From: an uncultured Gemmatimonadaceae bacterium
Lineage (GTDB): Bacteria > Gemmatimonadota > Gemmatimonadetes > Gemmatimonadales > Gemmatimonadaceae
Reading direction: 5' to 3'
DNA length: 64,000 nt
Assembly (NCBI GenBank): GCA_963740355.1
Contig: CAVUDW010000003.1
Coordinates: forward strand, 2,518,085-2,582,084
Part shown: positions 1,171 through 57,818 of the stretch, one piece after another
Position numbering within the stretch: position 1 is the first letter of the stretch
Layout: the number at the start of each line of letters is the position of its first letter
Notes under the pieces: generated by a model
What the model saw: only the letters and a program-made list of their open reading frames with translations
The model's database searches: none
What the model was told of the DNA's origin: nothing
Program-made: the position numbers and the translations under genes

Positions 1171-1550
1171 GCGGCGACGCTGCGCTTTCGCCCTGCGGTC
1201 CACACTCCCTCACGCGGAGCCGCGGGGGACGCGGAGACGCGGGGGACAGCATCGGACGCCTATGGCGGCGGAGGGGTCAAGAGCGGAACAAGAGCAACAG
1301 CTCTTTAGGGGTTGGATGCGCTCGCGACCTTCATGCCCACAGCCTGTGCAGTTCCCCAACAAAGCAGAGTTTCCGAGCGCCACGCGAACTCCCCTCCGCT
1401 GACGAGGAAGAATCAGCAACCACCTTGGCGAAAGGCGGGTTGCACGAACGCCGGGCGAAAGCGCAGCGTCGCCCCACAGGCCGTTGCTCTCCTCCGCGTC
1501 TCCGCGTCCCCCGCGGCTCCGCGTGAGGAAGTGCAGACCAGCAGGCGACG
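1171..1550. repeat. Modular palindromic intergenic repeat, copy A (diverged)
   Basis: Arm CTCACGCGGAGCCGCGGGGGACGCGGAGACGCGG has its reverse complement at ~1494-1527. GACGCTGCGCTTTCGCC and GACGCCTATGGCGGCGGAGGGGTCAA modules are shared with the other copies. Confidence 0.8.
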
Positions 1551-1780
1551 GATACGGAGCATCAGCAGCGCGGAGTTCCGGCAGTGCGTGCTGGAGGTTC
1601 CTCGTTGAGGTTCGCCAAGGCTGTTCGCGTCACCATCGCTCTTTCGATGTCGCAGGAACGAGCCACCCTTGCGCGCCAGTGACAGTCTTGAAATGAGCCA
1701 GATCAATTGACGCGCTGGGTTCAGTGGATTGATTCAGGGCAGGAGAGGGTTTCCACGACGCCGACCGACGCTGGCCCTGC

Positions 1781-4258
1781 ATGGATGCTACCGACCGACC
1801 AGCAAGCGATGTGATGCCTGCCGCGCATCTCGCGCTCGCAAACCAGATGGCCCTGCTCGAAACGGTCTTCGAGCGCGCGCCCGTCGGTCTCGGCGTGGTC
1901 GATTGCGACTTCCGCTACCTGCACGTCAACAGCGCGCTCGCCGCCATCAATGGGCTGCCAGCCGCCGACCACATCGGGCGCCGGCCGAGCGAAGTCGTGC
2001 CGAAGCTCTGGCCGCAGATCCAGGCCGTATACAACGCCGTGCTGCGCGGCGAGACCGTCGTCAATCACGAGATCAGCGGTGTCATCGAAGCCGGGCCCGG
2101 CGGAAGGGAAACCCGGCACTGGCTCACCAGCTACTACCCCGTCCGGCAGGGCAACGCAATCATCGGGATCGGCATCGTCGTCAATGATGTGACCGAGATG
2201 CGTCGCTACCGCGATGCCCTGCGGATCCGGACCGATCTCTACGCCATGATCTCGCGCACCAGTCGCGCGGCCGTCGAACGACAGACGCCACTCGAGCTGT
2301 ACGAGGACATCTGTCGCGTCGCCGTCGAGACTGGCCACTTCCGCTTCGCCTGGATCGGTGTGCCGGATGGTGATCGCGTAAGCATGATCGCGTCGGCCGG
2401 TGACGATCATGGGTACATGTCGGAGCTCGTCATCACACTCGACGAAAACGACCCACGGTCGCATGGTCCCACCGGCACTGCGGCGCGCACCGGCACGTCG
2501 TCGGTCGTGAATGTGTTCCATGCCGAAGATTCAACGCGGCCGTGGCACGACCTCGCCGAAGGCGCTGGCTTTGCGGCATCGGCCGCGTTCCCGCTGTTCG
2601 AACGCGGGAAGGTCGCATCAGTCATCACGCTCTATGCGTCAACCGCCGGGTTCTTCACCCAGGAGCTCCTCGATACACTGGGCGAGATCAGCCCGATCGT
2701 GTCCTTCGGCCTCGACTCGATGGCGGCCGAAGCCGCGAAGCGTCGGGACGATGCAGAGCTGCGGTTGCGCGACCGTGTGATCCGCGCCGTCTCATCCGGG
2801 ATCTGCATCACCGACCCGACGCAGCGCGACAACCCGATGATCTTCGTCAGTCCCGGCTTCGAAAAGTTGACCGGCTACTCAGCAGCGGAAGTCATCGGAC
2901 ATAACTGTCGTTTGTTGCAGGGCCCGCAGACCGACGCCGAGGATGTCGCGAAGATTCGTGAGGCGGTGCGGGCCGGGCGTGGGTGCACGGTCGAATTGAT
3001 GAACTACAAGAAGGATGGCACGCCGTTCTGGAACGAGCTCACCATCTCGCCGGTCGCCGACGAACATGGCACGCTGACACACTTTGTCGGCGTGCAGTCC
3101 GATGTCACGGAACGCCGCGCGCTCGAAGCGCAGATGCGTCAGTCGCAGAAGATGGAAGCCGTCGGCCAACTCGCCAGCGGGGTCGCACACGACTTCAACA
3201 ACCTGCTCACCGTCATCGATGTCTGCAGCGAGATGCTGGCGCGCATGCTGCAGAAGCAGCCTGACGCCCTCGAGCTCTGCGTCGAGGTGCAGAAGGCTGG
3301 TGAACGTGCCGGCACGCTGACACGGCAATTGCTCACCTTCAGCCGCAAGCAGGTCGTTGCGCCACGCATTGTCGATGTGAACCTGTTGGTGCGCGATAGC
3401 GAGAAGATGCTGCGCCGCCTGATCGGTGAGCACATCCTGCTCGCGATCAAGCTCGGGCCGACGGTGGGTTCAGTGGTGGTCGATCCAGGCCAGCTTGAGC
3501 AGGTGCTGGTGAACCTCGCCGTCAATGCGCGAGACGCCATGCCGACCGGCGGACGTCTGGCGGTCACCACCAGCAATGTGTCACTCGACGAGGCGCTTGG
3601 CCCGCTCGATCCCGGCCAGTACATCATGCTCGAGGTGAGCGATACCGGCAACGGCATGGACTCGGCGATTCTCTCGCAGATATTCGAGCCGTTCTTCACC
3701 ACCAAGCCCACCGGTCATGGCACGGGCCTGGGCCTCGCCACGGTGCGATCGATCGTTGAACAGGCGCGCGGCCATGTGGTCGTCGAGAGTGCACCAGGAC
3801 TCGGCACGAAGTTTCGCGTCTATCTCCCGCGCGACATGACGGAGATGGAAGAGACGACGATCCGTCTCCTACCGGGCAGCATGCCACGCGGCACAGAGAC
3901 CATTCTCCTGGTCGAGGATGACGATGCGGTCCGCCTCCTCGGCCAGCGCGCGCTCGCGCAGTGTGGCTACATCGTGCTCCCCGCTGCCGATGGTCACGCC
4001 GCGCTCGAATTCGCCCGCGCCTATCCCAACGACATCGACCTGCTCGTCTCCGACGTCGTGATGCCCCACCTCGGCGGCCGCAAACTCGCCGAAGCCATCG
4101 CCAAGATCCGTCCCAGCACAAAGGTGATGTTCGTCTCCGGCTACACCGACGATCAGGTGCTGCTGCATGGCGTCGTGCACTCCGAAGTCACGATGCTGCA
4201 AAAGCCCTACTCCATCGCGACCCTCGCGCAGACCGTCCGTCGAGTGCTCGATACGTAG
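1781..4258 (+). CDS. Hybrid sensor histidine kinase PAS-GAF-LOV-HisKA-HATPase-REC
   Basis: H-box AHDFNNLL, N-box NLAVNARDAM, G-boxes DTGNGM and GTGLGL, receiver LLVEDD...DVVMP, LOV motif GHNCRLLQG. Confidence 0.92.
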   Translation: MDATDRPASDVMPAAHLALANQMALLETVFERAPVGLGVVDCDFRYLHVNSALAAINGLPAADHIGRRPSEVVPKLWPQIQAVYNAVLRGETVVNHEISGVIEAGPGGRETRHWLTSYYPVRQGNAIIGIGIVVNDVTEMRRYRDALRIRTDLYAMISRTSRAAVERQTPLELYEDICRVAVETGHFRFAWIGVPDGDRVSMIASAGDDHGYMSELVITLDENDPRSHGPTGTAARTGTSSVVNVFHAEDSTRPWHDLAEGAGFAASAAFPLFERGKVASVITLYASTAGFFTQELLDTLGEISPIVSFGLDSMAAEAAKRRDDAELRLRDRVIRAVSSGICITDPTQRDNPMIFVSPGFEKLTGYSAAEVIGHNCRLLQGPQTDAEDVAKIREAVRAGRGCTVELMNYKKDGTPFWNELTISPVADEHGTLTHFVGVQSDVTERRALEAQMRQSQKMEAVGQLASGVAHDFNNLLTVIDVCSEMLARMLQKQPDALELCVEVQKAGERAGTLTRQLLTFSRKQVVAPRIVDVNLLVRDSEKMLRRLIGEHILLAIKLGPTVGSVVVDPGQLEQVLVNLAVNARDAMPTGGRLAVTTSNVSLDEALGPLDPGQYIMLEVSDTGNGMDSAILSQIFEPFFTTKPTGHGTGLGLATVRSIVEQARGHVVVESAPGLGTKFRVYLPRDMTEMEETTIRLLPGSMPRGTETILLVEDDDAVRLLGQRALAQCGYIVLPAADGHAALEFARAYPNDIDLLVSDVVMPHLGGRKLAEAIAKIRPSTKVMFVSGYTDDQVLLHGVVHSEVTMLQKPYSIATLAQTVRRVLDT

Positions 4259-4276
4259 ATCCTTCGTGCTACTGCA

Positions 4277-4597
4277 AATCGCAGAGACGCAGAGACGCAG
4301 AGAACTGCAACTGCCTTAACGCAGAACAGATGAACAGCGGTACTGCAACTGCCGCAGAACTGAACAGCCGCAGAACTGCAAGGGCAACTGCAACTGCTTT
4401 GGTAAAGGGCCTTGGAAGCGGAAGGTCGGTGGGCGAGTCGTTCCCTCAAAGAATCAGCCGCAACCCTCGACCAACCTTCCAGCATTCACACGCAGTTCTG
4501 CGGCTGTTCTGTTCTGCGGCTGTTCACTTCTGCGTTAAGGTAGTTGCAGTTCTCTGCGTCCCTCTGCGCCTCTGCGTTAAAGCAGTTGCAGTTCTCT
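4277..4597. repeat. Long imperfect palindrome made of CGCAGAGA / GCAACTGC / GAACAGC units between convergent genes
   Basis: Left arm CGCAGAGACGCAGAGAACTGCAACTGCCTTAACGCAGAA mirrors right arm TTCTGCGTTAAGGTAGTTGCAGTTCTCTGCGTC. Confidence 0.85.
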
Positions 4598-5820
4598 CAG
4601 CCGTGTAGAAAAGTCTCGAGTTTACGCCCGACCGCATCCGCACCGAATCTCGCTCGCACGCTCGCGTCAGCCGCGATACGCCGGGAGTCAGCCTGGGAGT
4701 CTGTCAGTGCGAGGGTGCGCTTGATGGCTGACGCGATGGAGTCGGCGTCGAAGGGATCACAGAGTTCGCCGATGGCACCGTCTTCGAGGATTTCGCGCGG
4801 GCCGCCGTGATTCGAGCCGACCATCAGCAAGCCGCGCGAGGCTGCTTCGGGGAAGACCATGCCGAAGGGTTCGTCCACCGGTGCGAAGGCGAACACGTCA
4901 CACTCGGCGGACAAGACATCCAGCTCCGCCGTCTGCAGGTAGCCGTGGAATTTCACGGCGCCCGGTGCCTCCGATGCGGCGAGTTTCTCCAGCGCCTTGC
5001 GACGCGCGCCACTGCCGACCACGTGCAGGATGGCCTGCTTGTGCACCTTGCGCACGATCGCGAACGCACGAATCAACGTGTCGATGTTCTTTGGAATGCC
5101 GAGTCGTGTCTGCACCAAGATCTGCGGTGCGCCACGACGCAGGCCGTGGCGTGGTGGTGCCGATTCGGCGAAGCGGACCATCGGGTACACCACTTCCGTG
5201 TCGGTGCGTCCCGTCGCTTCGCGCACACAGTCGGCACCGTATTGCGAGAGACTCGCCACCGCATCGAGTGAGCAGACGCCCCGACCGTCGAACGATCGCA
5301 GCTCCCGCTGCTGGCGTTCCTTCCAGGGCAGCATGCGCGCCATCAGGCCACGGCGCATCAGGCGTCGCGCCACCTGCTGCGTCGCGAAGTCGTTCGCTGC
5401 GTCGCCCATCATTTCGGCGTGATGCGCAGCTTTCGGATTTCCCTCGCGCACGTACAGCGAGCGGTACGGCTCGCAGGCGTACCAGACGCGGCGCGCATCG
5501 GCGGTGGCAGCCGTCAGCGGCGCACAGGGGTAGTTGTACGCCATGATCACGTCAGCGTCGCGCAGGAACGGGCGGGCGCGGTCGATCAGTTCCGGCATCA
5601 TCGCGGTCGTCAGCGATTCCATCTTCTTCACGCCCTTCGGCAGCCCGATCTCCTCGACCCTCAGTCCCTGCAGCTGCGTTGCGCACGCCGCCGTATCTGC
5701 CCGCAAGGCGACGATACGCACCGTGTGCCCAGCGGCAGCCAGCCAGCGCGCCTGCGTCGCCAGCAGGACTTCTGCGCCGCCGAACGAGGTGAAGTGACTG
5801 TGGAAGATCGTGACACGCAT
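4597..5820 (-). CDS. Glycosyltransferase family 4 protein
   Basis: N-terminal GGAE, KNIDTLIRAF and EPFGMVFPEA (EX7E) motifs. Confidence 0.88.
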   Translation of the reverse strand: MRVTIFHSHFTSFGGAEVLLATQARWLAAAGHTVRIVALRADTAACATQLQGLRVEEIGLPKGVKKMESLTTAMMPELIDRARPFLRDADVIMAYNYPCAPLTAATADARRVWYACEPYRSLYVREGNPKAAHHAEMMGDAANDFATQQVARRLMRRGLMARMLPWKERQQRELRSFDGRGVCSLDAVASLSQYGADCVREATGRTDTEVVYPMVRFAESAPPRHGLRRGAPQILVQTRLGIPKNIDTLIRAFAIVRKVHKQAILHVVGSGARRKALEKLAASEAPGAVKFHGYLQTAELDVLSAECDVFAFAPVDEPFGMVFPEAASRGLLMVGSNHGGPREILEDGAIGELCDPFDADSIASAIKRTLALTDSQADSRRIAADASVRARFGADAVGRKLETFLHG

Positions 5821-6051
5821 GATCAAGCCTCGGTCCGGCGAAGAATCTTCGGGCGCTGCGCTACCCGCATGAGACAATCAGGAGTGATATATCTGAATGA
5901 CAAGGCTTTCCTATTATCTCCCGGTTCCGAACCGCGCGGAGCGCCGCAGGGTGCCAGACCGTATCCCATCACCAGAGCAGCAACCGTGCCCTCGTTCAGA
6001 CGGACACCGATGAGCGCGTCTTCCCTACCAACCGTTCGGTCCAGCTGACTC

Positions 6052-6558: not shown

Positions 6559-6613
6559 CGTCGTCCGCCCGAGTTCGCCTGAAGGTGTCCGCTCCCCATT
6601 CGTCAGCGACCCG

Positions 6614-8639: not shown

Positions 8640-8673
8640 CAGCAGGAACGCATCTGCCGCGAACCGCGACTGT

Positions 8674-9156: not shown

Positions 9157-9325
9157 GGCTGTTTGCTCCGTTCGACGCAGTGGCTGTGACGCAGTGGTGA
9201 AGGAAATCTGTCTTCTGCCACCGACAGCCGAGGTCCGCCTCCCTCCCTCCCCCCGAACTCGCGCAGACTCGCGGCCGCTTCGCCCCTAAGTCTGCGTGAG
9301 CAAGGAGATTCAGCTTTCCGATCGA

Positions 9326-9928: not shown

Positions 9929-10076
9929 GAATTCCTTGTGTGTGTAGGTGGCAGGAGACTGGTCCAGGAGCGGCGAGGTCACTCGCGCTCGATGGGTTCG
10001 CCCTGCAGCCATGTCGTGTCGAGGCTGCAGGCGCTTCAGCCCATACACCGCTCGCGGCCGTCGGGGTCGGCGAGCG

Positions 10077-11081: not shown

Positions 11082-12701
11082 ATGCCGATGCCAGTCTCGA
11101 CCGTTCTGCTGCTGCTGGTCCCGCTCACGTATCTGATCGCCGCGCTGCTCCCTGAGCGTCTCTTCGCCCGGGTGCCTCAGCGCCGTTGGACTGCGTCCCT
11201 GAGCGCGACCGCACTCTGCGCGCTGCTCGCCCTTGCCGCCACTGCGACGCTCATCGCGCGCGGACCGGCGGTCGACAGCCTCGCGCTGCCAGGCTTCGCC
11301 GACCTCGAGATCGGACTCCGCCTCGACCCGCTCACCGCGGTCATGCTGGTGCTGATCACCGGCGTGGCGGGACTGATTCTCCGCTTCTCCGATCGCTACC
11401 TCGCCGGCGAACAGGGTCGGTCACGGTACGTCCGCTGGTTCCTCGCGACGATGGCCTCAGTCTCGCTCCTCGTCATCACCAACGACCTGATCGTGCTGGC
11501 GCTGGCGTGGATGGTGTCGAGCCTGACGCTGCACCAGCTGCTCGTATTCTACGGTGATCGCGCACCGGCGCTGATCGCCGCCCACAAGAAATTCCTGCTC
11601 AGCCGCGTGGCCGATGTCGTCATCTTCGCCGCGGTCGTGATGATCTGGCGCAGCATGGGCACACAGCGTATCGACGAGCTGATGGCGCAAGCGGCCGCGA
11701 TGGAGCAGATGCCCGCCGCGGTGAAGCTGGCTGGCCTGCTGCTCGTCACCGGTGTCGGCATCCGCTCGGCGCAGCTCCCGTTCCACGGCTGGCTGATCCA
11801 GGTGATGGAAGCACCCACGCCCGTGTCGGCCTTCCTGCACGCCGGCATCGTCAACGTCGGCGGCTTCGTGCTGATCCGGTTGTCAGGGCTGCTCGGCCGA
11901 CTGGATGGCGCACAGACGCTGCTCGTCGTCGCCGGTACCTGCACCGCGGTGCTCGCCGCGCTGGTGATGACGACGCGCGTGAGCGTGAAGGTCTCACTCG
12001 CCTGGTCCACCTGCGCGCAGATGGGCTTCATGCTCCTCGAGTGCGGACTCGGCGCCTACGGCCTCGCCCTGCTGCACCTCGTCGCCCACTCACTCTACAA
12101 GGCGCACGCGTTCCTCTCGTCTGGACGCGCCGTCGAGCAGCAACTTGTTCGCCGCATGACACCCACCGCGACGCGCACCACCGGGTTCCAGTGGGTTTCC
12201 GGTGCCGTCGCGGCGGCGGCCATCGTGCTCACGCTCGGCCACGCTCTGGGGCTGCGAATGGATGGTGAGACAGGATCACGCGCCGCCGCGCTGATCTTGT
12301 CGCTCGCACTCGCTCCGCTCTTCGTGAGCGGCATCTCGAATGGCGGTCGCTCTCTGCTTCGCGCGACACTCGGCGCGGTGATCCTCGTCGCCAGCTACGC
12401 ACTCGGCCACGAACTGTTCACGACCCTCGCACCCGACGTGAGCGGCTCTCCAATGATGGACGCCACCCGACTCGCCGTCGTCGCCATCGCATTCGGCGCG
12501 CTGTATGTCGTGCAAGCGACCATCGCGACGCAGCCCAGCGGCCGTCTCGCCCGTGCGCTCTACCCCGCGTGTTTCGCCGGCTTCTATCTCGACGAGATCT
12601 GGACGCGCCTCACCTTCCGCATCTGGCCCCCACGCGCGCTGCCCGTCACGCCACGCGTCGCCACCGCTGGCATGCCGATGCTGCGCGAGGTGCGCGCATG
12701 A
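11082..12701 (+). CDS. dabB: DabB/MpsA NuoL-like proton-conducting subunit of an inorganic carbon transporter
   Basis: AQLPFHGWLIQVMEAPTPVSAFLHAG and HLVAHSLYKAHAFL. Stop overlaps the DUF2309 start (ATGA). Confidence 0.88.
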   Translation: MPMPVSTVLLLLVPLTYLIAALLPERLFARVPQRRWTASLSATALCALLALAATATLIARGPAVDSLALPGFADLEIGLRLDPLTAVMLVLITGVAGLILRFSDRYLAGEQGRSRYVRWFLATMASVSLLVITNDLIVLALAWMVSSLTLHQLLVFYGDRAPALIAAHKKFLLSRVADVVIFAAVVMIWRSMGTQRIDELMAQAAAMEQMPAAVKLAGLLLVTGVGIRSAQLPFHGWLIQVMEAPTPVSAFLHAGIVNVGGFVLIRLSGLLGRLDGAQTLLVVAGTCTAVLAALVMTTRVSVKVSLAWSTCAQMGFMLLECGLGAYGLALLHLVAHSLYKAHAFLSSGRAVEQQLVRRMTPTATRTTGFQWVSGAVAAAAIVLTLGHALGLRMDGETGSRAAALILSLALAPLFVSGISNGGRSLLRATLGAVILVASYALGHELFTTLAPDVSGSPMMDATRLAVVAIAFGALYVVQATIATQPSGRLARALYPACFAGFYLDEIWTRLTFRIWPPRALPVTPRVATAGMPMLREVRA

Positions 12702-15214
12702 CGCCCAACACGATGACGGACAGCACGGTTGCGAACAGCACTACCGGCACCAACACCAGCGCCAGCACCATGACGAACGCCACACTCATCTCCGCCGATG
12801 TCGAACAAGCGATCACGAGCGCCTGTGATCGCATCGCACCATCCTGGCCACTCGATCGCCTCATCGCGGTGAACCCCTTCTGGGGCTTCGTGGACGCGCC
12901 GATCGAGCACGCCGCCGCTCAGTTGTCCGCGCTGTCCGGAGCCACGCTGCTGATGCCTCGCACCTGGTATCGCGAGCAGTTCACTGCCGGGCGATTCAGC
13001 GAGCGGCATGTCGCGCAGGCGATCGCGATCACCGGTGCCACACGGACTGCGGCCGAGGTGCTCGCGACGCTCCAGCGCGACGCGTCGGCGCCGGCGCAGT
13101 GGCGATTGATGACCGACGCCGCCGACGTTGGTCGTGATCTCGGCCATGCGATGCCGTGGACCGAGTACGTGACGCGTCATGTAAGCCAGACCTGCGCCGC
13201 CTACTTCGACGAGGGCCAGGCACGCTGGACGCCGGTTCGCGCCGAGGGCCTGTATCCACTGTGGCGTGAGCTCTCGATGCATGACGGTGGCCCACGACTG
13301 CTGATGGCGTTGCACCGCTTCCGCGAGGCCGCCGCGACACTGCCCGCCGATCCGCGTGTCTTGATAGCTGAAGCGCTGCAAGCGCTCGAGGTGCGGAGTG
13401 AGTTGCGGGATCAGTATCTCACCGCGTTGCTGCTTTCGGTGAATGGCTGGGCATCCGTCTGCGCCTTCCGCCGTTGGGAAGCGCGACCCGCGTCGGGTGA
13501 TGACGACCAGCTCGTGCACCTGCTCGCGGTGCGTCTTGCGTGGGAGCTGATATTGCTGCGACTCAGCACCTCGACGAAGACGCCCGACGCGTGGCGCGCT
13601 GCGAAGGCCGACTGGGCGTCGGCCGAATCGATGATGCTGCGCGCGCAGGGTGATGAATGGCTGCTGCAGCGGGCGTGCGAGATCGCGTATCAGGAGGGAG
13701 TGACTCGCGCACTCACGGAGGCGATGCACGCACCAGCCGAGCCGAAGCCCTCGCCCACTGCCCAGGCGGTCTTCTGCATCGACGTCCGCTCCGAGGTATT
13801 CCGTCGTTCACTCGAGCGTGTCGCGCCGTCGGTGCAGACGCTCGGGTTTGCCGGATTCTTCGGCCTGCCCATCGCGTACCAGCCCCTCAGCGGTCCCGCC
13901 CGTGCGCAGCTGCCTGGTCTGTTGTCGCCCGCGATGATCGTGGAAGATGCCGGCGCCGAGCGATCGTCGGCCAGCGCTGACACCCGCCGAGCGCTTGGTG
14001 ACAGCGCATCGTGGAAGTCGCTCGGTGCCACTGCGGCGTCGGCGTTCTCGTTCGTCGAAGCCACCGGCATCGCGGCTGCCGCGAAGCTCGTGCGCGATGG
14101 ATTCGGACTGGGCGCCAGCACTGGTGACACGCTGCGCTCGCCGTCCACGTCACACGCGACGCTCCGCCCCGAGCTCGCGCGTCGCGCTGACGGCAGCGCC
14201 GTGCCACTGGAGGCACGTGTTGCGCTGGCTGCGGGCATTCTCGGTGCGATGAGCCTGAAGAGCGGCTCCGCTCCGGTGTTGGCGCTGATCGGTCACGGTG
14301 CGTCCACCGAGAACAATCCGCTAGCTGCGGGTTTGCATTGCGGCGCTTGTGGTGGCCAGACCGGCGAGGTGAACGCGCGCGCGCTCGCCGCGCTGCTCAA
14401 TGATGCGGATGTGCGGGCAGGCCTCGTCACGACGGGCATCGATCTTGGCGACACGCTTGTCGTCGCCGGCTTGCACGACACCACTACGGACGAAGTCACG
14501 CTCTACGATCTCGATCGTGTGCCGGCATCACACACTCCGCTGATCGCCGCGTTGAAGTCGCAGTTCGCCGACGCCGGCATCGGTGCTCGGCGTGAGCGCG
14601 CCCAGTCGCTTGGCCTCGCGCGTGTTGGTGACGATGCCCTCGAGCGCTCCGTCCGTCATCGCTCACGTGACTGGGCCGAGGTGCGTCCCGAGTGGGGGCT
14701 GGCCGGCAATGCCGCGTTCTTCGTGGCACCACGCGAACGTACAGCGTCGATAGACCTGCAGGGTCGGTCATTCCTGCACGAGTACGACTGGCGGCAGGAC
14801 ACTGGGTTCAAGGTGCTCGAGCTGATCCTCACCGCGCCGATGGTCGTGACGCACTGGATCAACCTCCAGTACTACGCCTCCGTGGTGGACCCGCTCCGCT
14901 ACGGCAGCGGCAACAAGGTGCTGCACAACGTGGTGGGTGGTCGAGTTGGTGTGATGGAGGGGGCCGGTGGGGACCTGCGGATCGGGCTGGCGATGCAGTC
15001 GGTTCACGATGGGCAGCGGTGGATGCATGAACCGCTGCGGTTGTCGGTGTTCGTGGAGGCGCCGGCGGAGGCGATTGATGAAATCATCGCGCGGCATGCG
15101 GCGGTGCGGAGCCTGGTGGAGAATGAGTGGTTGTTCCTGCACCGGATTGATTCGGTGACGGGGGGTGTTGCGCAGTGGCGGCGTGGGGGGTGGGTTGAAG
15201 GCGTGAACGTGTGA
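12698..15214 (+). CDS. dabA: DabA/MpsB (DUF2309) beta-carbonic-anhydrase-like subunit
   Basis: IAPSWPLD..IAVNPF, Zn ligands in FCIDVRSE, GHG and CGACGG, plus RPEWGLA and HEPLRL. Confidence 0.92.
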   Translation: MTPNTMTDSTVANSTTGTNTSASTMTNATLISADVEQAITSACDRIAPSWPLDRLIAVNPFWGFVDAPIEHAAAQLSALSGATLLMPRTWYREQFTAGRFSERHVAQAIAITGATRTAAEVLATLQRDASAPAQWRLMTDAADVGRDLGHAMPWTEYVTRHVSQTCAAYFDEGQARWTPVRAEGLYPLWRELSMHDGGPRLLMALHRFREAAATLPADPRVLIAEALQALEVRSELRDQYLTALLLSVNGWASVCAFRRWEARPASGDDDQLVHLLAVRLAWELILLRLSTSTKTPDAWRAAKADWASAESMMLRAQGDEWLLQRACEIAYQEGVTRALTEAMHAPAEPKPSPTAQAVFCIDVRSEVFRRSLERVAPSVQTLGFAGFFGLPIAYQPLSGPARAQLPGLLSPAMIVEDAGAERSSASADTRRALGDSASWKSLGATAASAFSFVEATGIAAAAKLVRDGFGLGASTGDTLRSPSTSHATLRPELARRADGSAVPLEARVALAAGILGAMSLKSGSAPVLALIGHGASTENNPLAAGLHCGACGGQTGEVNARALAALLNDADVRAGLVTTGIDLGDTLVVAGLHDTTTDEVTLYDLDRVPASHTPLIAALKSQFADAGIGARRERAQSLGLARVGDDALERSVRHRSRDWAEVRPEWGLAGNAAFFVAPRERTASIDLQGRSFLHEYDWRQDTGFKVLELILTAPMVVTHWINLQYYASVVDPLRYGSGNKVLHNVVGGRVGVMEGAGGDLRIGLAMQSVHDGQRWMHEPLRLSVFVEAPAEAIDEIIARHAAVRSLVENEWLFLHRIDSVTGGVAQWRRGGWVEGVNV

Positions 15215-15419
15215 AGAGGCGGATCATGCCGCTGAGATAAAGGGTTGCCGTAGACCCAGACGGAGACTCGGCGCGTGACCGTGGCTTCGATCGGCGCATA
15301 GTCTGGCATCGCGATCTTGATGACTTGCTGTCCTTGCGCTGCATCGTTGTCAGACCCCGTTGCCAGATTGTACGCAGAGGTTCATTCGGTTAACGCTACT
15401 CTCGAGAGTTCGTGCGCGA

Positions 15420-17183
15420 ATGTACGACCCAACAATTGAGTTGAATCGCTGGCTCGTCCCCGGGACCCCGCTCCAGGCCGGCGAATATCCCGGCGGCAAG
15501 GACACCACCGTCGCCCGCGCCAAGCTCGAGGCGCTGCTGGCGATGGGCACTGACACCATCATCGACCTCACCGAAACGCGCGACAACTTGCGCGACTACC
15601 AGGACCTGCTTCGCACGTTGCCGAACGGTCGGTTTGTGAAGCTTTTGCGTGCACCGATCGCTGATGTCGGCGTGACCGAGCCCGCGCGCATTCACTTCAT
15701 TCTCGATGTGATCGAGGCGGCGCTCGACGCGCAGCAGCGTGTCTACCTGCATTGCTGGGGCGGCGCAGGACGGACCGGAATGATTGCCGGCTGCCTGATG
15801 GTGCGACGTGGTATGTCATCGGACGCTGCGCTGGCCGAGGTGGCGTCAGGCTGGAAGTCGATGCCAAAGTCGAAGCTGCCGCATCACAAGAATCGCACCT
15901 CGCCGGAGACCGACGCGCAGAAGGATGTCGTGCGGAAGTGGGCCGACCATGAAGCCACGCGCCGCGCGCGGCGAGGCGAGAGTGCTCGGATTACCAGTGC
16001 AGTGGCGAACGACCATAGTCGCGACACACCCGAGCGCGCCGACCTTCGACGCCGCGTGCGCGGCTGCCTGCTGGGCGGCGCCCTTGGTGACGCGCTCGGC
16101 CTCCCAGTCGAGTTCAAGTCGTACGCAGAGATCCAGAAGATTTATGGTCCCGGCGGCGTGCGCGAGCTCGCGCTCGATATGAACCTCGGCGCCGCACCCA
16201 TCAGCGACGACACGCAGATGACGCTGTTCACCGCTGAGGGGATGCTGCGCGGCATCAACCGCGGCAATCACAGGGGAGTCGGCGGTCCAAGCAGTTGCAT
16301 GACGCAAGCGTACCTGCGCTGGCTCGTGACACAGGGGCACATGTTGCCCAAGGACGGTGTCTTCCCTCCCGATCTCGTGCTTGGCTGGGCCGCCGCGAAG
16401 GGGCCGCTCAGCACACCCGAGCCTACGGACCTCGTGGACTTCGACGGTCGGCACCCAGGCTGGCTGGTTCGCGTGAAGCGGCTGCACGCGCAGCGGGCGC
16501 CAGGCACGACGTGCATCGGCTCCCTGCTGAAGGGTGGCATTCAGGGCAATCAGGTCTGGGCGAATGACCGGAAGGGTAACGGCGGCGTGATGCGCATCGC
16601 GCCGGTCGGGCTGTTTCCGAAGGCCGGTGAGGACACCGTGTTCGAGCTTGGGTGCGAGGCGGCGGGGATCACGCATGGGCATCCAACTGGGCGACTCACG
16701 GCGGGTGTGTTCGCGCTGATGATCCTGAAGCTGATCCACGGCCGGACGATTCGTGAGGCGGTGGCGGTTGCGTACGAGCGTGTGCAGCGGGAGGCGGAGC
16801 ATCAGGAGACTTCGGCTGCGATGTCTGCTGCTCTCGTGTTGTTCGACTCGGGCGTTCGGCCGACGCCGGCGGTAGTCGAGTCACTGGGCGGCGGGTGGAT
16901 CGCGGAGGAGGCGCTCGCGATCTCGATCTACTGTGCGCTACTCGGTGAGGTGGCCGAGGATGCGGAAGCGGCGATGCTGCTGGCTGTCAATCATGGTGGG
17001 GATAGTGACAGTACCGGGAGCATGACGGGGCAGTTGTTGGGGGCGCGGTTTGGGGACGAGGTTTTGCCGGCCCGGTGGAGAGCGGTCGTTGAGTTGCGCG
17101 ATGTGATCGAGCAGGTGGCGGATGATGTGGTGACCGAGTGGCGAGAGGATGGGGAGTGGTGGGGGAGGTATCCGGGGTATTGA
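15420..17183 (+). CDS. Fusion of protein-tyrosine/dual-specificity phosphatase and ADP-ribosylglycohydrolase
   Basis: HCWGGAGRTG (CX5R) followed by GDALG, SDDTQMT, GNGGVMR, TH and GGDSDSTG in one uninterrupted ORF. Confidence 0.9.
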   Translation: MYDPTIELNRWLVPGTPLQAGEYPGGKDTTVARAKLEALLAMGTDTIIDLTETRDNLRDYQDLLRTLPNGRFVKLLRAPIADVGVTEPARIHFILDVIEAALDAQQRVYLHCWGGAGRTGMIAGCLMVRRGMSSDAALAEVASGWKSMPKSKLPHHKNRTSPETDAQKDVVRKWADHEATRRARRGESARITSAVANDHSRDTPERADLRRRVRGCLLGGALGDALGLPVEFKSYAEIQKIYGPGGVRELALDMNLGAAPISDDTQMTLFTAEGMLRGINRGNHRGVGGPSSCMTQAYLRWLVTQGHMLPKDGVFPPDLVLGWAAAKGPLSTPEPTDLVDFDGRHPGWLVRVKRLHAQRAPGTTCIGSLLKGGIQGNQVWANDRKGNGGVMRIAPVGLFPKAGEDTVFELGCEAAGITHGHPTGRLTAGVFALMILKLIHGRTIREAVAVAYERVQREAEHQETSAAMSAALVLFDSGVRPTPAVVESLGGGWIAEEALAISIYCALLGEVAEDAEAAMLLAVNHGGDSDSTGSMTGQLLGARFGDEVLPARWRAVVELRDVIEQVADDVVTEWREDGEWWGRYPGY

Positions 17184-40133: not shown

Positions 40134-40148
40134 CGTTGTTTCTGCAAG

Positions 40149-40220
<72 letters not shown>

Positions 40221-40569
40221 AGACCTCTCACTTCGCACCACCCGCACCACCTTCAAGCCGCGCACACTCGCGAGTGCGAGCCAGCGCTCTCTGCGCCCGC
40301 GCCAACCGCAGGAGTCGCGCCACGCCAGCTCCGCAGGTCTCTCGTTGCTAGCCCCATTCCACGCCGTGGCAGACACCCCCGCCTCGATAGCGCGAATTGC
40401 CCGTCTCTTGCCCATGGCACGTTCGCGAATCATGACGCCCCCGCTGAACCCCGGCGGCATCAGCTCGAGCGCAGGTCGTTCAGCTTCGCGAACGGACCGA
40501 ACCATGCCTTCAAGCGCCGCGCGGCTCCGGAAGCGGAACTGGAGCTCTAGTGATTGCCCGCATGTCAGT

Positions 40570-41975: not shown

Positions 41976-42150
41976 CGCGATCAGGTGTAAGGGTCAGCCC
42001 TCAATTTAACCCCCCACCCAACCGCGCCCGACGCGCACCTGTCCACTGCAAGCGACACTTGCTAGGTGCTGCGTCGGACTCTACCCTACTGCATCGGCTC
42101 TGTGGTGCATGCCGCAGACCAATTCCGCCAGGGCCTAGCCCCGGTGGTAC

Positions 42151-42183
42151 AGCCCCCCGGCAAGTCCGGGGGGCTCTTTTTTT
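42151..42183 (+). terminator. Intrinsic terminator with no annotated upstream plus-strand gene
   Basis: AGCCCCCCGG-CAAGT-CCGGGGGGCT followed by CTTTTTTT. Confidence 0.75.
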
Positions 42184-42231
42184 CTGCCAACTCTGCCGGG
42201 TGTCGAGGCTCGCGCGGCTGCGCCGCCACCT

Positions 42232-42606
42232 GTCCACACTCCATCACGCGGAGGCGCGGAGGACGCGGAGCCGCGGAGCTTTCGCTTGCGGCAGCCACCC
42301 CGCGCGTGGCTCGGAGGCTTTAACGGCAGGGGAACTGCGCTCGCCTCCGCAATACACGTTCCGAAATAGTGACTATTTCTGAACTGAAGGCTGCAGAGTG
42401 CGCAGACACCCCAAAGGTTTTTACACTTCACTTGTGCTTGAACACCCCGCCGCCCTAGGCGTCCCGAGCAGTCCTCCGCGTCTCCGCGTCCCCCGCGGCT
42501 CCGCGTGAGGAAGTGTGGACCGCCCTGCGCGGCACGCGCGCGAAGTGCAGTTCAGCGGCTGTTCAGTTCCGCGGCTGTGTGCTCTTCTGCGTTAAAGCAG
42601 TTGCCC
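42232..42606. repeat. Modular palindromic repeat copy B plus a half copy of the 4.3-kb palindrome arm
   Basis: TCACGCGGAGGCGCGGAGGACGCGGAGCCGCGGAG ... CCGCGGCTCCGCGTGAGGAAGTGTGGACC, then TTCTGCGTTAAAGCAGTTGC. Confidence 0.8.
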
Positions 42607-43546: not shown

Positions 43547-43786
43547 GCGCGACCGCGGCAATAGGGCGTGAACTTCGGCGTTACGACCATTCAACACACT
43601 GCGTCCAAGGCGGTTCCGAAAAACCCCCACGCCGCGCGATCTCAGTCACGGCAATTCGTGTTCCCGAGACTGACGACCGGAGCCCTGCAGCCGTGACTCC
43701 CCTTGAAGCTCGGCCGCTCAGCCTTCCGCGGCAAGTCCGCTCTTCCCCGCGATCCTCCGCGTCCACCGCCGGCTCCGTGCCTTTGC

Positions 43787-44139
43787 GCCGCGACGCTGCG
43801 CTTTCGCCTGGCGGTCCACACCTCCTCACGCGGAGGCGCGGAGGACCGCGGAGCCGCGGAGCTTTCGCTCGCGGCAGCCAGCTCATGCTTGGGCTTGGAG
43901 GTTGAACTGCAGGGGAACTGCGCTCGCGGTCGCCACCCTCGGCTCCACGTAGCATCTAGCAGTCACAGCAACGTTGCCATGCGGACCAACACCCCAAAAA
44001 GCAGTTGCCGTTGCCGTTTGCCCTTCGCCCGGTGTTGACCCCTCCGCCGCCAAAGGCGTCGGGGCCTTCCTCCGCGCCTCCGCGTCCCCCGCGGCTCCGC
44101 GGGTTTGACCGTGTGGACCACCGCCGCCATAGGCGTCCA
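43787..44139. repeat. Modular palindromic repeat copy C (inverted relative to D and E)
   Basis: Close reverse complement of 57371-57720 over ~350 bp. Confidence 0.9.
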
Positions 44140-48133: not shown

Positions 48134-48163
48134 GCTCTGTTTGGATCTTCTGGATCGTGGTAT

Positions 48164-48604
48164 CGGACGCCTATGGCGGCGGTGGTCCACACGGTCAAAC
48201 CCGCGGAGCCGCGGTGGACGCGGAGGCGCGGAGAACTGCTTCGGACGCCTTTGGCGGCGGAGGGGTCAACAGCGAGCGAAGGGCAGGTGCAACCACAACT
48301 GCTTTTTGGGGTGTCGGCCCGCACGGCACCGTTGATGTGCGCGCTAGACGCCATCGCCAGCCAGAGGTGGCTACCGCGAACGCAGTTCCCCTGCAGTTCA
48401 ACCTCCGAGCCCAAGCACGAGCTGGCTGCCGCGAGCGCAGATCCCCTGCAGTTCAACCTCCGAGCCCAAGCACGAGCTGGCTGCCGCGAGCGCAGTTCCC
48501 CTGCAGTTCAACCTCCGAGCCCAAGCACGAGCTGGCTGCCGCGAGCGAAACCTCCGCGGCTCCGCGGTCCTCCGCGCCTCCGCGTGAGGAAGTGTGGACC
48601 GCCG
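48164..48604. repeat. Modular palindromic repeat copy D with an internal 3 x 55 bp tandem expansion
   Basis: Collinear with copy E. The 55-bp units start at 48381, 48436 and 48491. Confidence 0.9.
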
Positions 48605-48640
48605 GCGGCACAGCCGCGCGAGAGTTCAACGACTCGGATC

Positions 48641-50043: not shown

Positions 50044-50189
50044 GGGCGGGCTGGGTGAGTCGGAGTTGGCTGCGCGTGAGTCCTCATCCGCGCGAACCGG
50101 AAATGTATGCAACTGTCGAGAACAACCGCAGCGGTGGAACATCATCCAAGGTCGGCCGGCTACGGTCGATCTGCACCACCGTCGAGTAT

Positions 50190-54281: not shown

Positions 54282-55329
54282 GCCGCTGCTCCGACGACGT
54301 GCACAGCTCCAGCACCAGCGACGACAGCACCTGCTCATCGTTCGAGGCACGGGTGTCCTTCAGCCGCTCGTCGGCGCGCAGAATCGCACGCATCCCCAGC
54401 TCGGCGTCGGCGACGGTCCACTTGGGCACGAATTTGGTCCACGCGGCAGTCGCTTCACCCCACGGACGGCCAGGAAAGGCCCCGGTGCGCTTGAGCAAAT
54501 CGAAATACTCCTTGGCCAGCCGGTTGAGCGGGACACCCTTCGCACGTTGCGCAGCGCCCCAGCCAAGTGCAGCGGTCTGGGTGGAGAGCGCCATCGCAAT
54601 TCCAACGCCGGTGGTCTTCGGCAATGCCAGCACCGGTCCGACCAGCGCCACTGCCTGTGTCACATCGCGACCGGCGACGGCGTCCAGCAGATCGCTCGAC
54701 GTCTCGCCATGCCGAATGCCGACGACTGCCTCGATGACACTCTTGTCGATCGTGCCACCGAGCACGTAGCTGGCTGCCTTGTCGAGCTCCATCATCAACG
54801 TGCCAGCGTCATCACCCACGGCACTCTGCAGCAACGCGACGGCGTCCGGCGTGATCTGCGCCCCGAAACGTTCTGACGTCTGCTTCACGATCCACTTCGA
54901 CAGCTCTTCGCCGCTGACAGCGTTTACCTGCAGGCTGAAACAGCGATTCACCAGCGACGCTTCCGGCTTCACCCCGGCCGGGACGGTCAGCGCCAGCACG
55001 ACGTCGGACAGCGGCTTCGCGAGATAGCGATCGAGCGCAGCGCGTGCGGGCTTCTTCATGCCGCTCACGTCTCGAATCACGACAACGCGCCGGTCGGCCA
55101 TCATCGGCGGAGTCCCCAGCAGCGTCCCGACGGCATCTGCATCGAGTTCGGCACCGCGCAGCTGATCGAGGTTGAAATCGCGCGACGCAGGATCGACGGC
55201 ACCACGCAACAGCTCACGCAGAGCGGCGTCCTTCCGCCATTCGTCGTCTCCCCAGAAGAGGTACGCCGGTGCGAAAGCCCGTTCCTTGATCTGCGTCATG
55301 AACTGGCGAGTGATGTCCTTCGACGACAT
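54274..55329 (-). CDS. holA: DNA polymerase III subunit delta
   Basis: PAYLFWGDD, FNLD, PMMADRRVVVIRD and MELDK. Confidence 0.9.
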   Translation of the reverse strand: MSSKDITRQFMTQIKERAFAPAYLFWGDDEWRKDAALRELLRGAVDPASRDFNLDQLRGAELDADAVGTLLGTPPMMADRRVVVIRDVSGMKKPARAALDRYLAKPLSDVVLALTVPAGVKPEASLVNRCFSLQVNAVSGEELSKWIVKQTSERFGAQITPDAVALLQSAVGDDAGTLMMELDKAASYVLGGTIDKSVIEAVVGIRHGETSSDLLDAVAGRDVTQAVALVGPVLALPKTTGVGIAMALSTQTAALGWGAAQRAKGVPLNRLAKEYFDLLKRTGAFPGRPWGEATAAWTKFVPKWTVADAELGMRAILRADERLKDTRASNDEQVLSSLVLELCTSSEQRRA

Positions 55330-55456
55330 ACGTCGAATATAGCCCGTGAGGGCTCATGGCCCTTCGGTGCGCGCCTGGCAGATGATTGTCGTTTCCGTCC
55401 CGTGCCCACGTCCTGCGGATTACTCGTCCCCGCGCTGCGACCTGCCAGCCTTGGTC

Positions 55457-56176
55457 CTAACGACGAGTATGCATCACGGACACGGGGAGCACGTCACCGA
55501 ATTCCATCGCGGCGAAGCGATTTGCCGCATGGGCCGCCATCTGGGCCGTCGGCCAGAGCGGAGCGGTCGCAGCGACCGAGGTCGCGGTCACGTCGCCCAT
55601 GCCGGCCTTGTCGGCACCGTCGAGGAGCGGGTCGTCGGACAGCGGGAGCAGCGCACCGCCAACGGGACGCATCGGGCGCAGCACCACGATGTTGCCGCTG
55701 GAGATGCCGGAGGTGGCCGACATCGCCGACGCCGGCAGGAACGACATCGCGTCTTCCATCGAGAAGCTGGCCGAATCAGCGCCGCCGGTCATGGCGGACA
55801 GGCTGCCACTCCGGATCACAGTGCCTCGCACGACCAACGATCCGCCGACCACCGCGGCCACCGCGGCCGCCCGTCGCATCCAGGTCATGTTGCCGCCGGC
55901 GAACACGGTGCGGCGTTCGGCGTGCGAGGGCTTGGTTTCGGCGATCCGGCTGCGGCGCTCTTCGGCGATCCGAGCAGCGAGGCGGGCCGAAAAGTCCGAC
56001 GAGACTTCGAGCTGGGGCGCGTTACGCGCCACCATCAGGGCTCGGCGGGCCAACGTGTCGAATCGGGAGCAGGGGGCGCAGTCAGCCAGATGGCCGGCGA
56101 GTCGGTCACTCTCTCGCGGGTCGAGCATGTCGTCGACCCAATCCCCGTGATGCTCTCTGAATGCGCGGCAATCCAT
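55457..56176 (-). CDS. zf-HC2 anti-sigma factor
   Basis: MDC...HLADCAPC followed by a TM segment. Lies downstream of the ECF sigma. Confidence 0.85.
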   Translation of the reverse strand: MDCRAFREHHGDWVDDMLDPRESDRLAGHLADCAPCSRFDTLARRALMVARNAPQLEVSSDFSARLAARIAEERRSRIAETKPSHAERRTVFAGGNMTWMRRAAAVAAVVGGSLVVRGTVIRSGSLSAMTGGADSASFSMEDAMSFLPASAMSATSGISSGNIVVLRPMRPVGGALLPLSDDPLLDGADKAGMGDVTATSVAATAPLWPTAQMAAHAANRFAAMEFGDVLPVSVMHTRR

Positions 56177-56364
56177 ATGTGAACGACTTTACCCACCCAC
56201 ACCCCACCAGTTCCAGAGGGGTGGCTGAATCGGCCGATATTGGGCCGCGATAGCGCGACCAGTTTGCGGTGAAAGAGATCGCCCCCGGAAGCGAACTCCC
56301 GGGGGCGATCAGATGGTACGGGTGCTCTTTGCGGGCTGCCGTCGGGCGGCCCCACGGCAGGCTT

Positions 56365-57036
56365 CTACCTGAGCGCGGGAGCGATCCGCTCCGCAAAGCT
56401 GGCCCGTGCCCGGTTCAGGCGTGACTTCACCGTGCCGAGGTTGACGCCGGTGATTTCGGCGATCTCCTCGTAGCTCTTGCCCTCGAGTTCACGCAGCACG
56501 AACACCTCGCGGTGATGGGCCGGCAACGTCCCCACGACTTCCTCGACGGCTTCCTGCAGGTAGCGCTTGTGGTACGCGTCGTCGGGACGGGCGGCCACAT
56601 CCTCGAAATCGAGAGGGCGCTCTTCATCGTCGGCAAACTTGTCGCGCACGGACTGGAACAGCACCAGCGGGTTCCGGCTGCGGTTCCGCAGCTCGTTCTT
56701 CGCCAGGTTGGAGGCAATGGTGTAAATCCACGTGCTGAACTTCTTCGAGGCGTCGAAGCGATGGAGGTGGCGATAGACGCGGATGAAGACTTCCTGAACG
56801 AGGTCTTCCGCCTTCTCGCGATCACCGATCGTCCGATAGATGAAGTTCAAAAGCCGAGTCTGGTAGCGTTCGACCAGCAACTCAAACGCCATCTCCTCGC
56901 CAGCGAGGAAGGCAGCCACGACATCGGCATCCTCCGCCGCACGCATCCTCTCACGACGCGTCGGTGCCGGAGCAACAGGCTCGGCCTTGGACGTGTGGAG
57001 GGACAGGACTCCGGTGTTTCGTGCGAGTTCGGCCAT
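56365..57036 (-). CDS. ECF sigma-70 factor
   Basis: AEDLVQEVF, FSTWIYTIA and GTVKSRLNRAR. Confidence 0.93.
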   Translation of the reverse strand: MAELARNTGVLSLHTSKAEPVAPAPTRRERMRAAEDADVVAAFLAGEEMAFELLVERYQTRLLNFIYRTIGDREKAEDLVQEVFIRVYRHLHRFDASKKFSTWIYTIASNLAKNELRNRSRNPLVLFQSVRDKFADDEERPLDFEDVAARPDDAYHKRYLQEAVEEVVGTLPAHHREVFVLRELEGKSYEEIAEITGVNLGTVKSRLNRARASFAERIAPALR

Positions 57037-57370
57037 CTGGATCTCCCGGCTATAAGTGCGTCATCGATCCGTCCAGTCATCCTGACCGATCCGTCCGATG
57101 TTCCCATACCACTACGGCACGTGACGTGCCGCGGATTGTTCCAACGGTTCCATCTTCGTAACTCCAGACACTTGAATGGTTTACACCCCCCATTCGAAAA
57201 GCGTTGGAACTTCGGGTCTCAGTTTGAGGACACTCGAGCCGCCATTCTGGCCTGCCAATAGGACACTCCAGCGGTCTCTGCAATTCCTTATTCTGTCAGT
57301 CTCTACCGTCGCTTTTGTTGCTGAGTACGTCAGCTATTGCGACTCGCGCGCGGTAATTGACGCAGGCGCA

Positions 57371-57818
57371 TGGACGCCTTTGGCGGCGGTGGTCCACACG
57401 GTCAAACCCGCGGAGCCGCGGGGGACGCGGAGGCGCGGAGGAGGGCCCCGACGCCTTCGGCGGCGGAGGGGTCCACACCGGGCGGAAGGGCAACGGCAAC
57501 TGCTTTTTGGGGGGTCGGCCCGCGCGGCAACGTTGCTGTGATTGCTTTGTGCTACTTGGAGACGGGGGTGGCGACCGCGAGCGCAGTTCCCCTGCAGTTC
57601 ATCCTCCAAGCCCAAGCATGCGCTGGCTGCCGCGCGCGAAAGCTCCGCGGCTCCGCGGTTCTCCGCGCCTCCGCGTGAGGAAGTGTGGACCGCTAGGCGA
57701 AAGCGCAGCGTCGCGGCGGGAGGTCGCGGGCGGGAGGCAGAACTGGCCGTGGGCTTGGAGGAGGATCGCGGCGTGAGGACGTGTGGACCGCCAGGCGAAA
57801 GCGCAGCGTCGCGGCGGG
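57371..57818. repeat. Modular palindromic repeat copy E with a duplicated terminal module
   Basis: Full element, then a second GTGTGGACCGC.AGGCGAAAGCGCAGCGTCGCGGCGGGA. Confidence 0.9.

What the first reader, a model, noticed from the sequence alone, without database searches (positions are those of the whole stretch)
1171..57818. Dispersed ~300-450 bp modular, self-complementary intergenic element (5 copies in 64 kb)
Seen: copies at 1171-1550, 42232-42525, 43787-44139, 48164-48604 and 57371-57818. They occur in both orientations, only between genes, and not in the 17-40 kb island. Each has inverted arms built from 8-9-nt periodic CGCGGAG units next to GGTCCACAC/GTGTGGACC, small hairpins (CGCC-TWY-GGCG, GC-GAAA-GC) and a core (GCAACTGCTTTTTGGGG ... 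GCAGTTCCCCTGCAGTTCA) best kept in copies C-E. Modules are lost, duplicated or triplicated between copies. There is no plausible conserved ORF and no transposase here. Copies C and D interrupt a co-directional core gene string, so they are probably transcribed. Inference: a non-autonomous REP/BIME- or MITE-like element, or a structured ncRNA family, spread by an enzyme encoded elsewhere. I recall similar periodic arms flanking GxxExxY genes, but this is unverified.
Basis: partly seen in the sequence, partly recalled or inferred. Interest (0 to 1): 0.75.

Follow-up and report, generated by a model that had tools for sequence, protein, structure and literature searches.

The report
Gene-less repeats of a GxxExxY nuclease
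These five hairpin-forming DNA repeats belong to a family scattered between genes all over this bacterial genome, and the same kind of repeat arms bracket a small predicted DNA-cutting gene (GxxExxY) in many bacteria, so the repeats are likely gene-less copies of a selfish element spread by that enzyme, a pairing I did not find described in print.

Summary
The five copies belong to a family of 50 intergenic loci (96 arms) in this genome. The unit is a ~55-bp arm (word CGCGGAG every 8-9 nt), usually paired inward around a variable filler. The genome's four commonest repeats pair one-to-one with four single genes: two RAYTs and two GxxExxY (PF13366) genes. This family abuts the second GxxExxY gene but does not enclose it. 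Such arms bracket 33 of 42 GxxExxY genes in relatives and 70 of 79 in other phyla. Strong arm excess occurs in 27 of 56 gene-bearing and 1 of 95 gene-free genomes. Orthologous sites in congeners are empty or hold that genome's own arm variant with unrelated fillers, while fillers here match paralogues, so whole units were copied. The protein models as a PD-(D/E)xK nuclease. No Rfam match, little covariation, no target-duplication signal. Best reading: REPIN-like non-autonomous elements likely spread by a PD-(D/E)xK nuclease, not an HUH transposase; cutting and movement are untested. I found no paper on it, but this scan noted the gene-plus-arms unit before on much other DNA.

The parts
1174..1550 (.). 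Copy A: cap hairpin (1174-1192), arm 1196-1251 (+), divergent filler 1252-1484, arm 1485-1541 (-); between divergent genes
42214..42539 (+). Copy B: cap 42214-42226, arm 42230-42282, filler 42283-42466 (main subfamily, diverged), arm 42467-42522, cap 42527-42539; between the rhomboid 3' end and a convergent terminator
43790..44139 (+). Copy C: cap 43790-43808, arm 43811-43865, filler 43866-44064 (main subfamily), arm 44065-44121, cap 44125-44135; between ddl and rhomboid
48164..48617 (-). Copy D: cap 48168-48178, arm 48182-48240, filler 48241-48547, arm 48548-48601, cap 48605-48617; upstream of the fumarylacetoacetase gene, a site only 34-51 bp long in 3 congeners
48388..48547 (-). 55-bp filler module in three tandem copies inside copy D
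57371..57714 (-). Copy E: cap 57375-57385, arm 57389-57443, filler 57444-57638, arm 57639-57693, cap 57696-57714; between divergent ECF-sigma and DUF4440 genes
57781..57812 (+). Duplicated GTGTGGAC box plus GC-GAAA-GC-GCA-GC cap outside copy E

Best explanation
The five repeats are gene-less, arm-bounded copies of a family of 50 intergenic loci in this genome, and they are likely copied around the chromosome by the small GxxExxY protein, a predicted PD-(D/E)xK nuclease, whose gene abuts a four-arm copy elsewhere in the genome (G000:C2:2026770-2027192). Shown: arm-bounded units with their filler were duplicated between unrelated intergenic sites; arm type tracks the GxxExxY gene within and between genomes; the protein keeps a PD-(D/E)xK motif set. 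Inferred: the enzyme binds the phased 7-nt words and nicks or cuts the arm pair when it folds as a hairpin or cruciform or is single-stranded. Host repair then copies the unit into a new intergenic site or over an older element, often nearby, without a fixed target duplication. The strand-specific purine-N-A hairpin caps of this family would protect or mark the 3' end of a single-stranded DNA intermediate (inferred, and seen only in this lineage). It works like REPIN/RAYT but is not a member of that family.
For: One-to-one pairing in G000: each of the four commonest repeats lies within 1 kb of exactly one of four genes (2 RAYT, 2 GxxExxY) and of no other; this family pairs with GxxExxY_2. Inverted arms enclose 33 of 42 GxxExxY loci in relatives (control 99th percentile; 1 of 43 dropped for short flank) and 70 of 79 in many other phyla (control 2% of 237 windows; 1 of 80 dropped). 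24 of 80 loci nearest to GxxExxY_2 carry CGCGGAG-N-CGCGG, 49 of 57 such matches behind TCA as in 69 of 88 arms here. GxxExxY_2 falls in a 25-row clade (support 99/77) whose arms are mostly CGCGG(A/G)/CGCAGA types; GxxExxY_1 with its different repeat falls elsewhere. Gene-less elements at three orthologous sites best match GxxExxY flanks of the same genome in 17 of 29 filled sites (14 of 26 without G000; label shuffles mean 2.4, max 15 of 10,000). Across 151 genomes, arm excess >=10 occurs in 27 of 56 with the gene and 1 of 95 without; >=20 in 19 of 56 and 0 of 95. Fillers of B, C, D score <=31 against orthologous sites but 92-267 against their best paralogues. E33, D73, K85 invariant and E83, Q97, Y101 >=90% in 55 sequences; model pLDDT 87.5; best folds are restriction-like/Cas4-type nucleases.
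Against: No cutting, binding or movement was observed. In G000 the cognate gene is not enclosed: an empty arm pair lies upstream, there is no downstream arm, and its own IR score is 20, i.e. background; chance adjacency of a given gene to one of 50 loci is about 2%. 29 of 56 gene-bearing genomes have no arm expansion. G120 and G001 have arms but no gene found (98% and 96% complete drafts). G019 and G011 hold elements whose best-matching gene lies in another genome. Kin are not independent, the arm pattern was designed after seeing some of these genomes, and a gene's own arms add a few matches, so the p-values overstate. The caps are not general: 12 of 146 arms vs 12 on the other strand in far loci, 10 of 97 vs 10 in congeners. 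No exact empty/filled junction was found. Fold scores are middling (Z 8.3 and below) and do not show function. 66 larger neighbour genes were mostly not scanned for another enzyme.
Confidence: 0.65

Rival explanations
1. The arms spread by host processes (replication slippage, hairpin-stimulated recombination, gene conversion) or by another, unidentified enzyme; GxxExxY is a passenger that lives between the arms and co-evolves with them only by conversion.
For: Tandem slippage of modules is visible (triple 55-mer in D, tandem caps and arms). Best paralogues are often near each other (8 of 18 within 70 kb vs 2.0 expected, but three are reciprocal pairs). Half the gene-bearing genomes show no expansion, and two genomes have arms without a detected gene.
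Against: A passenger would not need intact catalytic residues or a separate arm family per gene clade. Expansions are almost absent from gene-free genomes (1 of 95). No other nuclease or transposase among 26 small neighbour genes scanned, though 9 of them have no Pfam match.
Confidence: 0.2
2. They are REP/TIR elements mobilised in trans by one of the genome's two RAYT (HUH Y1) enzymes.
For: Two RAYT genes are present. 55 of 88 arms contain GGAG followed by a 5-bp hairpin, loosely like a REP foot plus stem. The caps hint at single-stranded DNA, the RAYT substrate (PMC8266576, passages).
Against: Each RAYT is bracketed by its own different repeat family, and neither lies within 1 kb of this family. 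There is no GTAG foot. The hairpin needs a C linker, found in only 1 of 57 matches in far loci.
Confidence: 0.07
3. A structured non-coding RNA family conserved for an RNA function.
For: Copies fold strongly (-139 to -165 kcal/mol as RNA); C and D lie inside co-directional gene strings.
Against: No Rfam match. In 13 aligned copies only 5 of 62 (one strand) and 3 of 77 (other strand) consensus pairs show any compensatory change, and the central filler is unpaired in the forward consensus. Either orientation occurs between co-directional genes, and 12 of 50 loci lie between divergent genes. Fillers are unrelated between orthologous sites.
Confidence: 0.04
4. A classical MITE moved by a DDE or other IS transposase, with terminal inverted repeats and target-site duplications.
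For: Inverted ends around a non-coding interior, and whole-unit copies.
Against: No excess of flanking direct repeats (mean longest 5.8 vs 5.6 bp in shuffled pairs, 32 loci; a crude test because ends are ragged). 15 of 50 loci are single arms, and modules swap between ends. No transposase among the 26 small neighbours scanned. ISfinder was not available.
Confidence: 0.04

Closest known systems
REPIN/RAYT (REPtron) systems (PMC5581495 and PMC8266576, passages read)
   Same: Inverted pairs of short intergenic repeats in tens of copies; a single-copy cognate enzyme gene beside its own repeat; several distinct repeat-enzyme pairs per genome; tandem arrays; enrichment between convergent genes (15 of 50 vs 635 of 4352 junctions).
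   Different: The enzyme is a 140-aa PD-(D/E)xK-fold protein, not an HUH Y1 transposase. The arm is a purine-rich 7-nt word in 8-9-nt phase, not a GTAG-footed stem-loop. Fillers are long (69-307 bp) and variable.
TIRtrons/TIRYT (Di Nocera et al. 2013, PMC3733652, passages read)
   Same: A gene bracketed by terminal inverted repeats that also form dispersed singles, dimers and clusters. This genome's two RAYT loci show that layout.
   Different: TIRYTs are tyrosine transposases; here the bracketed gene family is GxxExxY.
PDDEXK_3 / PF13366 / TIGR04256 GxxExxY protein (PMC3424549, one table row read: function 'Unknown', multiple transfers)
   Same: Both GxxExxY genes of this genome pass the curated cut-offs.
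   Different: The family's link to repeats and any activity were not found in my paper searches.
Cas4/RecB-type nucleases and the Holliday-junction resolvase Hjc (structure only)
   Same: Fold and D, ExK, QxxxY motif order. Best Foldseek hit 4ic1 SSO0001 (E 7e-4; that it is a Cas4 is recalled); Cas4 4r5q Z 5.8; Hjc 1gef Z 5.5, rmsd 3.4, 87 aligned.
   Different: Low identity (<=21% for these hits) and middling Z; the substrate cannot be read from the fold.

Membership tests
REPIN/RAYT | Inverted doublets over-represented in extragenic space | tested here: met
   32 inward pairs; 0 of 50 loci overlap my approximate gene calls
REPIN/RAYT | Cognate gene is an HUH Y1 tyrosine transposase lying beside the repeat | tested here: not met
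   Both PF01797 genes are flanked by other repeats; this family abuts a PF13366 gene
REPIN/RAYT | [quoted passage not shown] | tested here: not met
   No GTAG in the arm consensus. A GGAG+5-bp stem occurs in 55 of 88 arms but is not kept in other phyla.
REPIN/RAYT | Cleavage of single-stranded repeat by the cognate enzyme | not testable with these tools
   Needs biochemistry
MITE (IS-derived) | Target-site duplication | tested here: inconclusive
   No excess of flanking direct repeats, but ends are ragged and no exact empty allele was available
MITE (IS-derived) | Autonomous IS with the same ends and a transposase | tested here: inconclusive
   None among 26 small neighbours; larger neighbours mostly unscanned; ISfinder unavailable. 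The only arm-linked enzyme found is GxxExxY.
Rfam structured RNA | Match to a covariance model | tested here: not met
Rfam structured RNA | Covariation outside the repeat arms and fixed orthologous sequence | tested here: not met
GxxExxY / PDDEXK_3 (the associated gene) | Score above the TIGR04256 / PF13366 cut-off | tested here: met
   129.4 bits vs 35; 128.8 vs 22
PD-(D/E)xK nuclease (the associated gene) | Restriction-like fold with acidic residues and (D/E)xK | tested here: met
   E33, D73, E83-x-K85, Q97xxxY101 conserved; model and fold matches
PD-(D/E)xK nuclease (the associated gene) | Metal-dependent nuclease activity | not testable with these tools
   Needs purified protein

The most novel reading that the evidence does not exclude
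A second, independent class of REPIN-like replicators, present in many bacterial phyla: phased-word inverted repeats that a stand-alone ~130-aa PD-(D/E)xK nuclease cuts and the host copies, each enzyme co-evolving with its own word and repeatedly overwriting the same intergenic sites. This would be a mode of DNA mobility without any transposase, recombinase or reverse transcriptase.
Probability: 0.5. Interest if true: 0.87.

Novelty: new variant of a known kind. Interest (0 to 1): 0.72.

Why it matters
It proposes a role for a very common domain of unknown function: about 12,000 stored stretches in the genome collection are estimated to match the search patterns. It also names the likely source of abundant unexplained intergenic repeats in several phyla. 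This genome holds two RAYT/repeat and two GxxExxY/repeat pairs side by side, which gives built-in cognate and non-cognate controls for biochemistry. It makes the question of how single-copy nucleases and their repeats persist testable with an unrelated enzyme. A 140-residue nuclease whose target word varies between clades could also be of use as a tool.

Tried and rejected
Rfam at gathering threshold over the window and by E-value over B/C and the gene locus: nothing on the element. Four-helix-bundle PF05635: none in G000. Remnants of the GxxExxY gene inside the 50 loci: none. PDB sequence search with the protein: nothing below E 0.2. Target duplications: no signal. Sequencing runs: no RNA holder listed; contigs of four low-share DNA runs gave no joint that removes a whole copy; neither says anything on expression or absence. 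The dimer prediction could not be run, so oligomeric state is open. Caps as a general feature: rejected. Caps as an independent repeat family: rejected, 0 of 63 box+cap matches lie outside the loci. The ShiLan HNH insertion (PMC11855218, abstract only) is a different element. Paper searches that found no description: GxxExxY (2 works listed; one passage read, unrelated; PMC12085832 listing only), PDDEXK_3, PF13366/TIGR04256, PDDEXK + repetitive extragenic palindrome, REP + Gemmatimonas, REP + Cas4-like, and (listings only). The library lacks most subscription journals and I read no supplements, so a description in a closed paper or in supplementary tables of MITE/REP surveys is not excluded.
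Full report
1. Observation. The five copies are present as described, with small coordinate corrections given under the observation check. BLAST of the five copies against the window's genome (G000, 5.45 Mb, 5 contigs, 94% complete) gave 52 loci. A profile of the arm gave 96 arms in 50 loci: 24 simple inward pairs, 8 pairs with extra tandem arms, 15 single arms and 3 outward pairs. The arm reads box GGTCCACAC, a short spacer ending in TCA, then CGCGG(A/G)G words at offsets 0, 8, 17 and 25. Fillers are 69-307 bp; 16 of 32 link into one subfamily that includes all five window copies, 2 form a second group and 14 are unique. With my own approximate gene calls (4357 genes, 86% coding; they under-call the low-GC island), 0 of 50 loci overlap a gene; 15 are convergent, 23 co-directional and 12 divergent, against 635, 3082 and 635 junctions genome-wide. 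dnaA lies near the start of contig C2 and the GC skew changes sign between C3 and C2, so the window is probably near the origin (inference).

2. The cognate gene. G000 has two GxxExxY genes (PF13366, TIGR04256) and two Y1_Tnp genes, and no PF05635 match. The commonest 16-mers of the genome fall into four families. Each family lies within 1 kb of exactly one of these four genes: two bracket the RAYTs, one brackets GxxExxY_1, and the family of this finding abuts GxxExxY_2. At that locus three tandem arms, a filler and one inverted arm end 77 bp upstream of the gene, and there is no downstream arm. The gene is thus beside an empty pair, not inside one. The same layout occurs in relatives (L041, L055 upstream; L032, L033, L037, L019 downstream). 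Among 26 other small neighbour genes of the 50 loci no nuclease or transposase was found; 9 have no Pfam match. 66 larger neighbours were not scanned, apart from those in the window.

3. Generality. In relatives, 33 of 42 scored GxxExxY loci have an inverted repeat across the gene above the 99th percentile of 1000 random controls (own median 45, cross-locus median 19; one locus dropped; GxxExxY_2 itself fails). A scan of the species-representative collection kept the best 80 of 592 confirmed loci from 4 of 64 parts; record titles include Verrucomicrobiota, Planctomycetota, Chloroflexota, Alphaproteobacteria, Desulfobacterota, Acidobacteriota, Cyanobacteria and Bacteroidota. Of 79 scored, 70 exceed 30 (control 2%; a few of these alignments come from neighbouring empty pairs and one, L140, looks spurious). 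24 of the 80 carry the core of the window's arm. In five of those genomes, chosen by me because their gene has arms, the pattern has 5-39 matches and the reversed control 0; in one of them four of the five matches are at the gene. A protein tree separates GxxExxY_1 and GxxExxY_2, and arm words follow the clades loosely. Over 151 genomes of the phylum, a generic three-word pattern exceeds its reversed control by 10 or more in 27 of 56 genomes with the gene and 1 of 95 without; by 20 or more in 19 and 0. The gene thus looks nearly necessary but not sufficient. Kinship, post-hoc pattern design and the gene's own arms inflate the formal p-values.

4. Mobility. The sites of B, C and D could be read in 15, 16 and 13 congeners. 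They are either empty (the D site is 34-51 bp in G001, G007, G009) or hold arm pairs with other words. Of 47 sites examined, 29 counted as filled (score >=40, gene known in that genome; G001 was dropped for lack of a gene). In 17 of them the best-matching GxxExxY flanks among 26 genomes belong to the same genome (14 of 26 without G000; one is a tie; shuffles mean 2.4, max 15). G019 and G011 are clear misses, and a profile search found no further gene in them. The fillers of B, C and D are unrelated to whatever sits at the orthologous sites (<=31) but match paralogues elsewhere in G000 (best 92, 267, 193). So whole units were copied within this lineage, and the same intergenic sites were filled or overwritten repeatedly. 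The closest paralogue lies within 70 kb for 8 of 18 fillers (2.0 expected; three reciprocal pairs). Ends are ragged, caps swap between left and right arms, and no target-duplication signal was seen.

5. Not an RNA family. There is no Rfam hit, little covariation, an unpaired central filler in the forward consensus, and free orientation relative to transcription. Expression is untested.

6. Caps. Just outside the box, on the strand reading outward, 45 of 48 triloop hairpins with stems of 4 bp or more have a purine-N-A loop and none has the complementary form (background 9.6%). With post-hoc patterns for the GC-G(A/T)AA-GC-GNA-GC form added, 68 of 84 arms have a cap, against 0 of 84 on the other strand and 1.4% background (4 of 88 arms had no locatable box). 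GCGNAGC and GCGNNAGC are nuclease-resistant DNA mini-hairpins whose RNA versions are much less stable (PMC13037366: abstract, outline and passages). The caps are confined to this family, so they hint at a single-stranded DNA stage here but do not define the system.

7. The protein. In 55 sequences G28, G30, E33, Y36, D73 and K85 are invariant, and E83, Q97 and Y101 are at least 90% conserved. The AlphaFold2 model (pLDDT 87.5) matches SSO0001 (E 7e-4, the only hit at E <= 0.001), Hjc resolvases, lambda exonuclease and other PD-(D/E)xK proteins. By VIA-align the best matches are 3ijm (Z 8.3, rmsd 3.2, 100 aligned) and 4ic1 (Z 7.4, rmsd 4.3, 106 aligned). Assigning these residues to the nuclease motifs rests on established knowledge of the superfamily (recalled). 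PMC3424549 lists PDDEXK_3 as function unknown (one table row).

8. Mechanism and verdict. Shown: dispersal, whole-unit copying, site turnover, cognate association and an intact predicted active site. Inferred: recognition of the phased words, cutting of a folded or single-stranded arm pair, and copying by host repair. It works like REPIN/RAYT and TIRtron systems (PMC5581495, PMC8266576, PMC3733652; passages) but fails their defining enzyme and GTAG tests. My paper searches (listed under Tried and rejected) found no description. I formed this reading before consulting the scan's notes. Those notes (1134 findings hold the search words; 8 shown) report the gene-plus-arms unit many times on other DNA; they are not independent evidence. 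Earlier notes place the genome in Gemmatimonadota; I did not test that. Novelty: new variant of a known kind, with chemistry that would be new if confirmed. Interest 0.72.

Noticed in passing
window 42085-42185 (+): Conserved non-coding stretch ending in a strong intrinsic terminator (42151-42185), divergent from queF; recognisable in all 15 congeners read; some compensatory changes in a rough alignment (2 of 6 rows mis-cut); no Rfam family reaches threshold. Possibly an undescribed small RNA.
   Followed up: partly
window ~43600-43750: A second, more loosely conserved non-coding stretch between copy C and the rhomboid gene, seen in many congeners.
   Followed up: no
G000:C2:2081128-2081478 (L001): GxxExxY_1 is enclosed by its own repeat (CACGGAG-type; 96 arms in 34 loci genome-wide, none in this window), a second family of the same system.
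   Followed up: partly
G000:C2:1530613 (L003) and G000:C3:374781 (L004): Two RAYT/TIRYT genes, each bracketed by its own high-copy repeat family (202 and 117 matches).
   Followed up: partly
window ~17200-41500: Island with low-GC patches, a type I/III restriction-type ATPase region, HTH_17 and PIN genes, and tRNA-Phe at 40148-40221; free of all four repeat families.
   Followed up: no
window 11082-17183: DabB-like antiporter subunit plus DabA (inorganic carbon pump), followed by a DSP-phosphatase/ADP-ribosylglycohydrolase fusion.
   Followed up: no
G120, G001: Arms present but no GxxExxY gene found by family or profile search; either gene loss, an assembly gap or another enzyme.
   Followed up: partly
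G000:C3:622100-624000 (L231): A 204-aa gene without Pfam match lies between two co-oriented single arms, a cassette-like layout.
   Followed up: no
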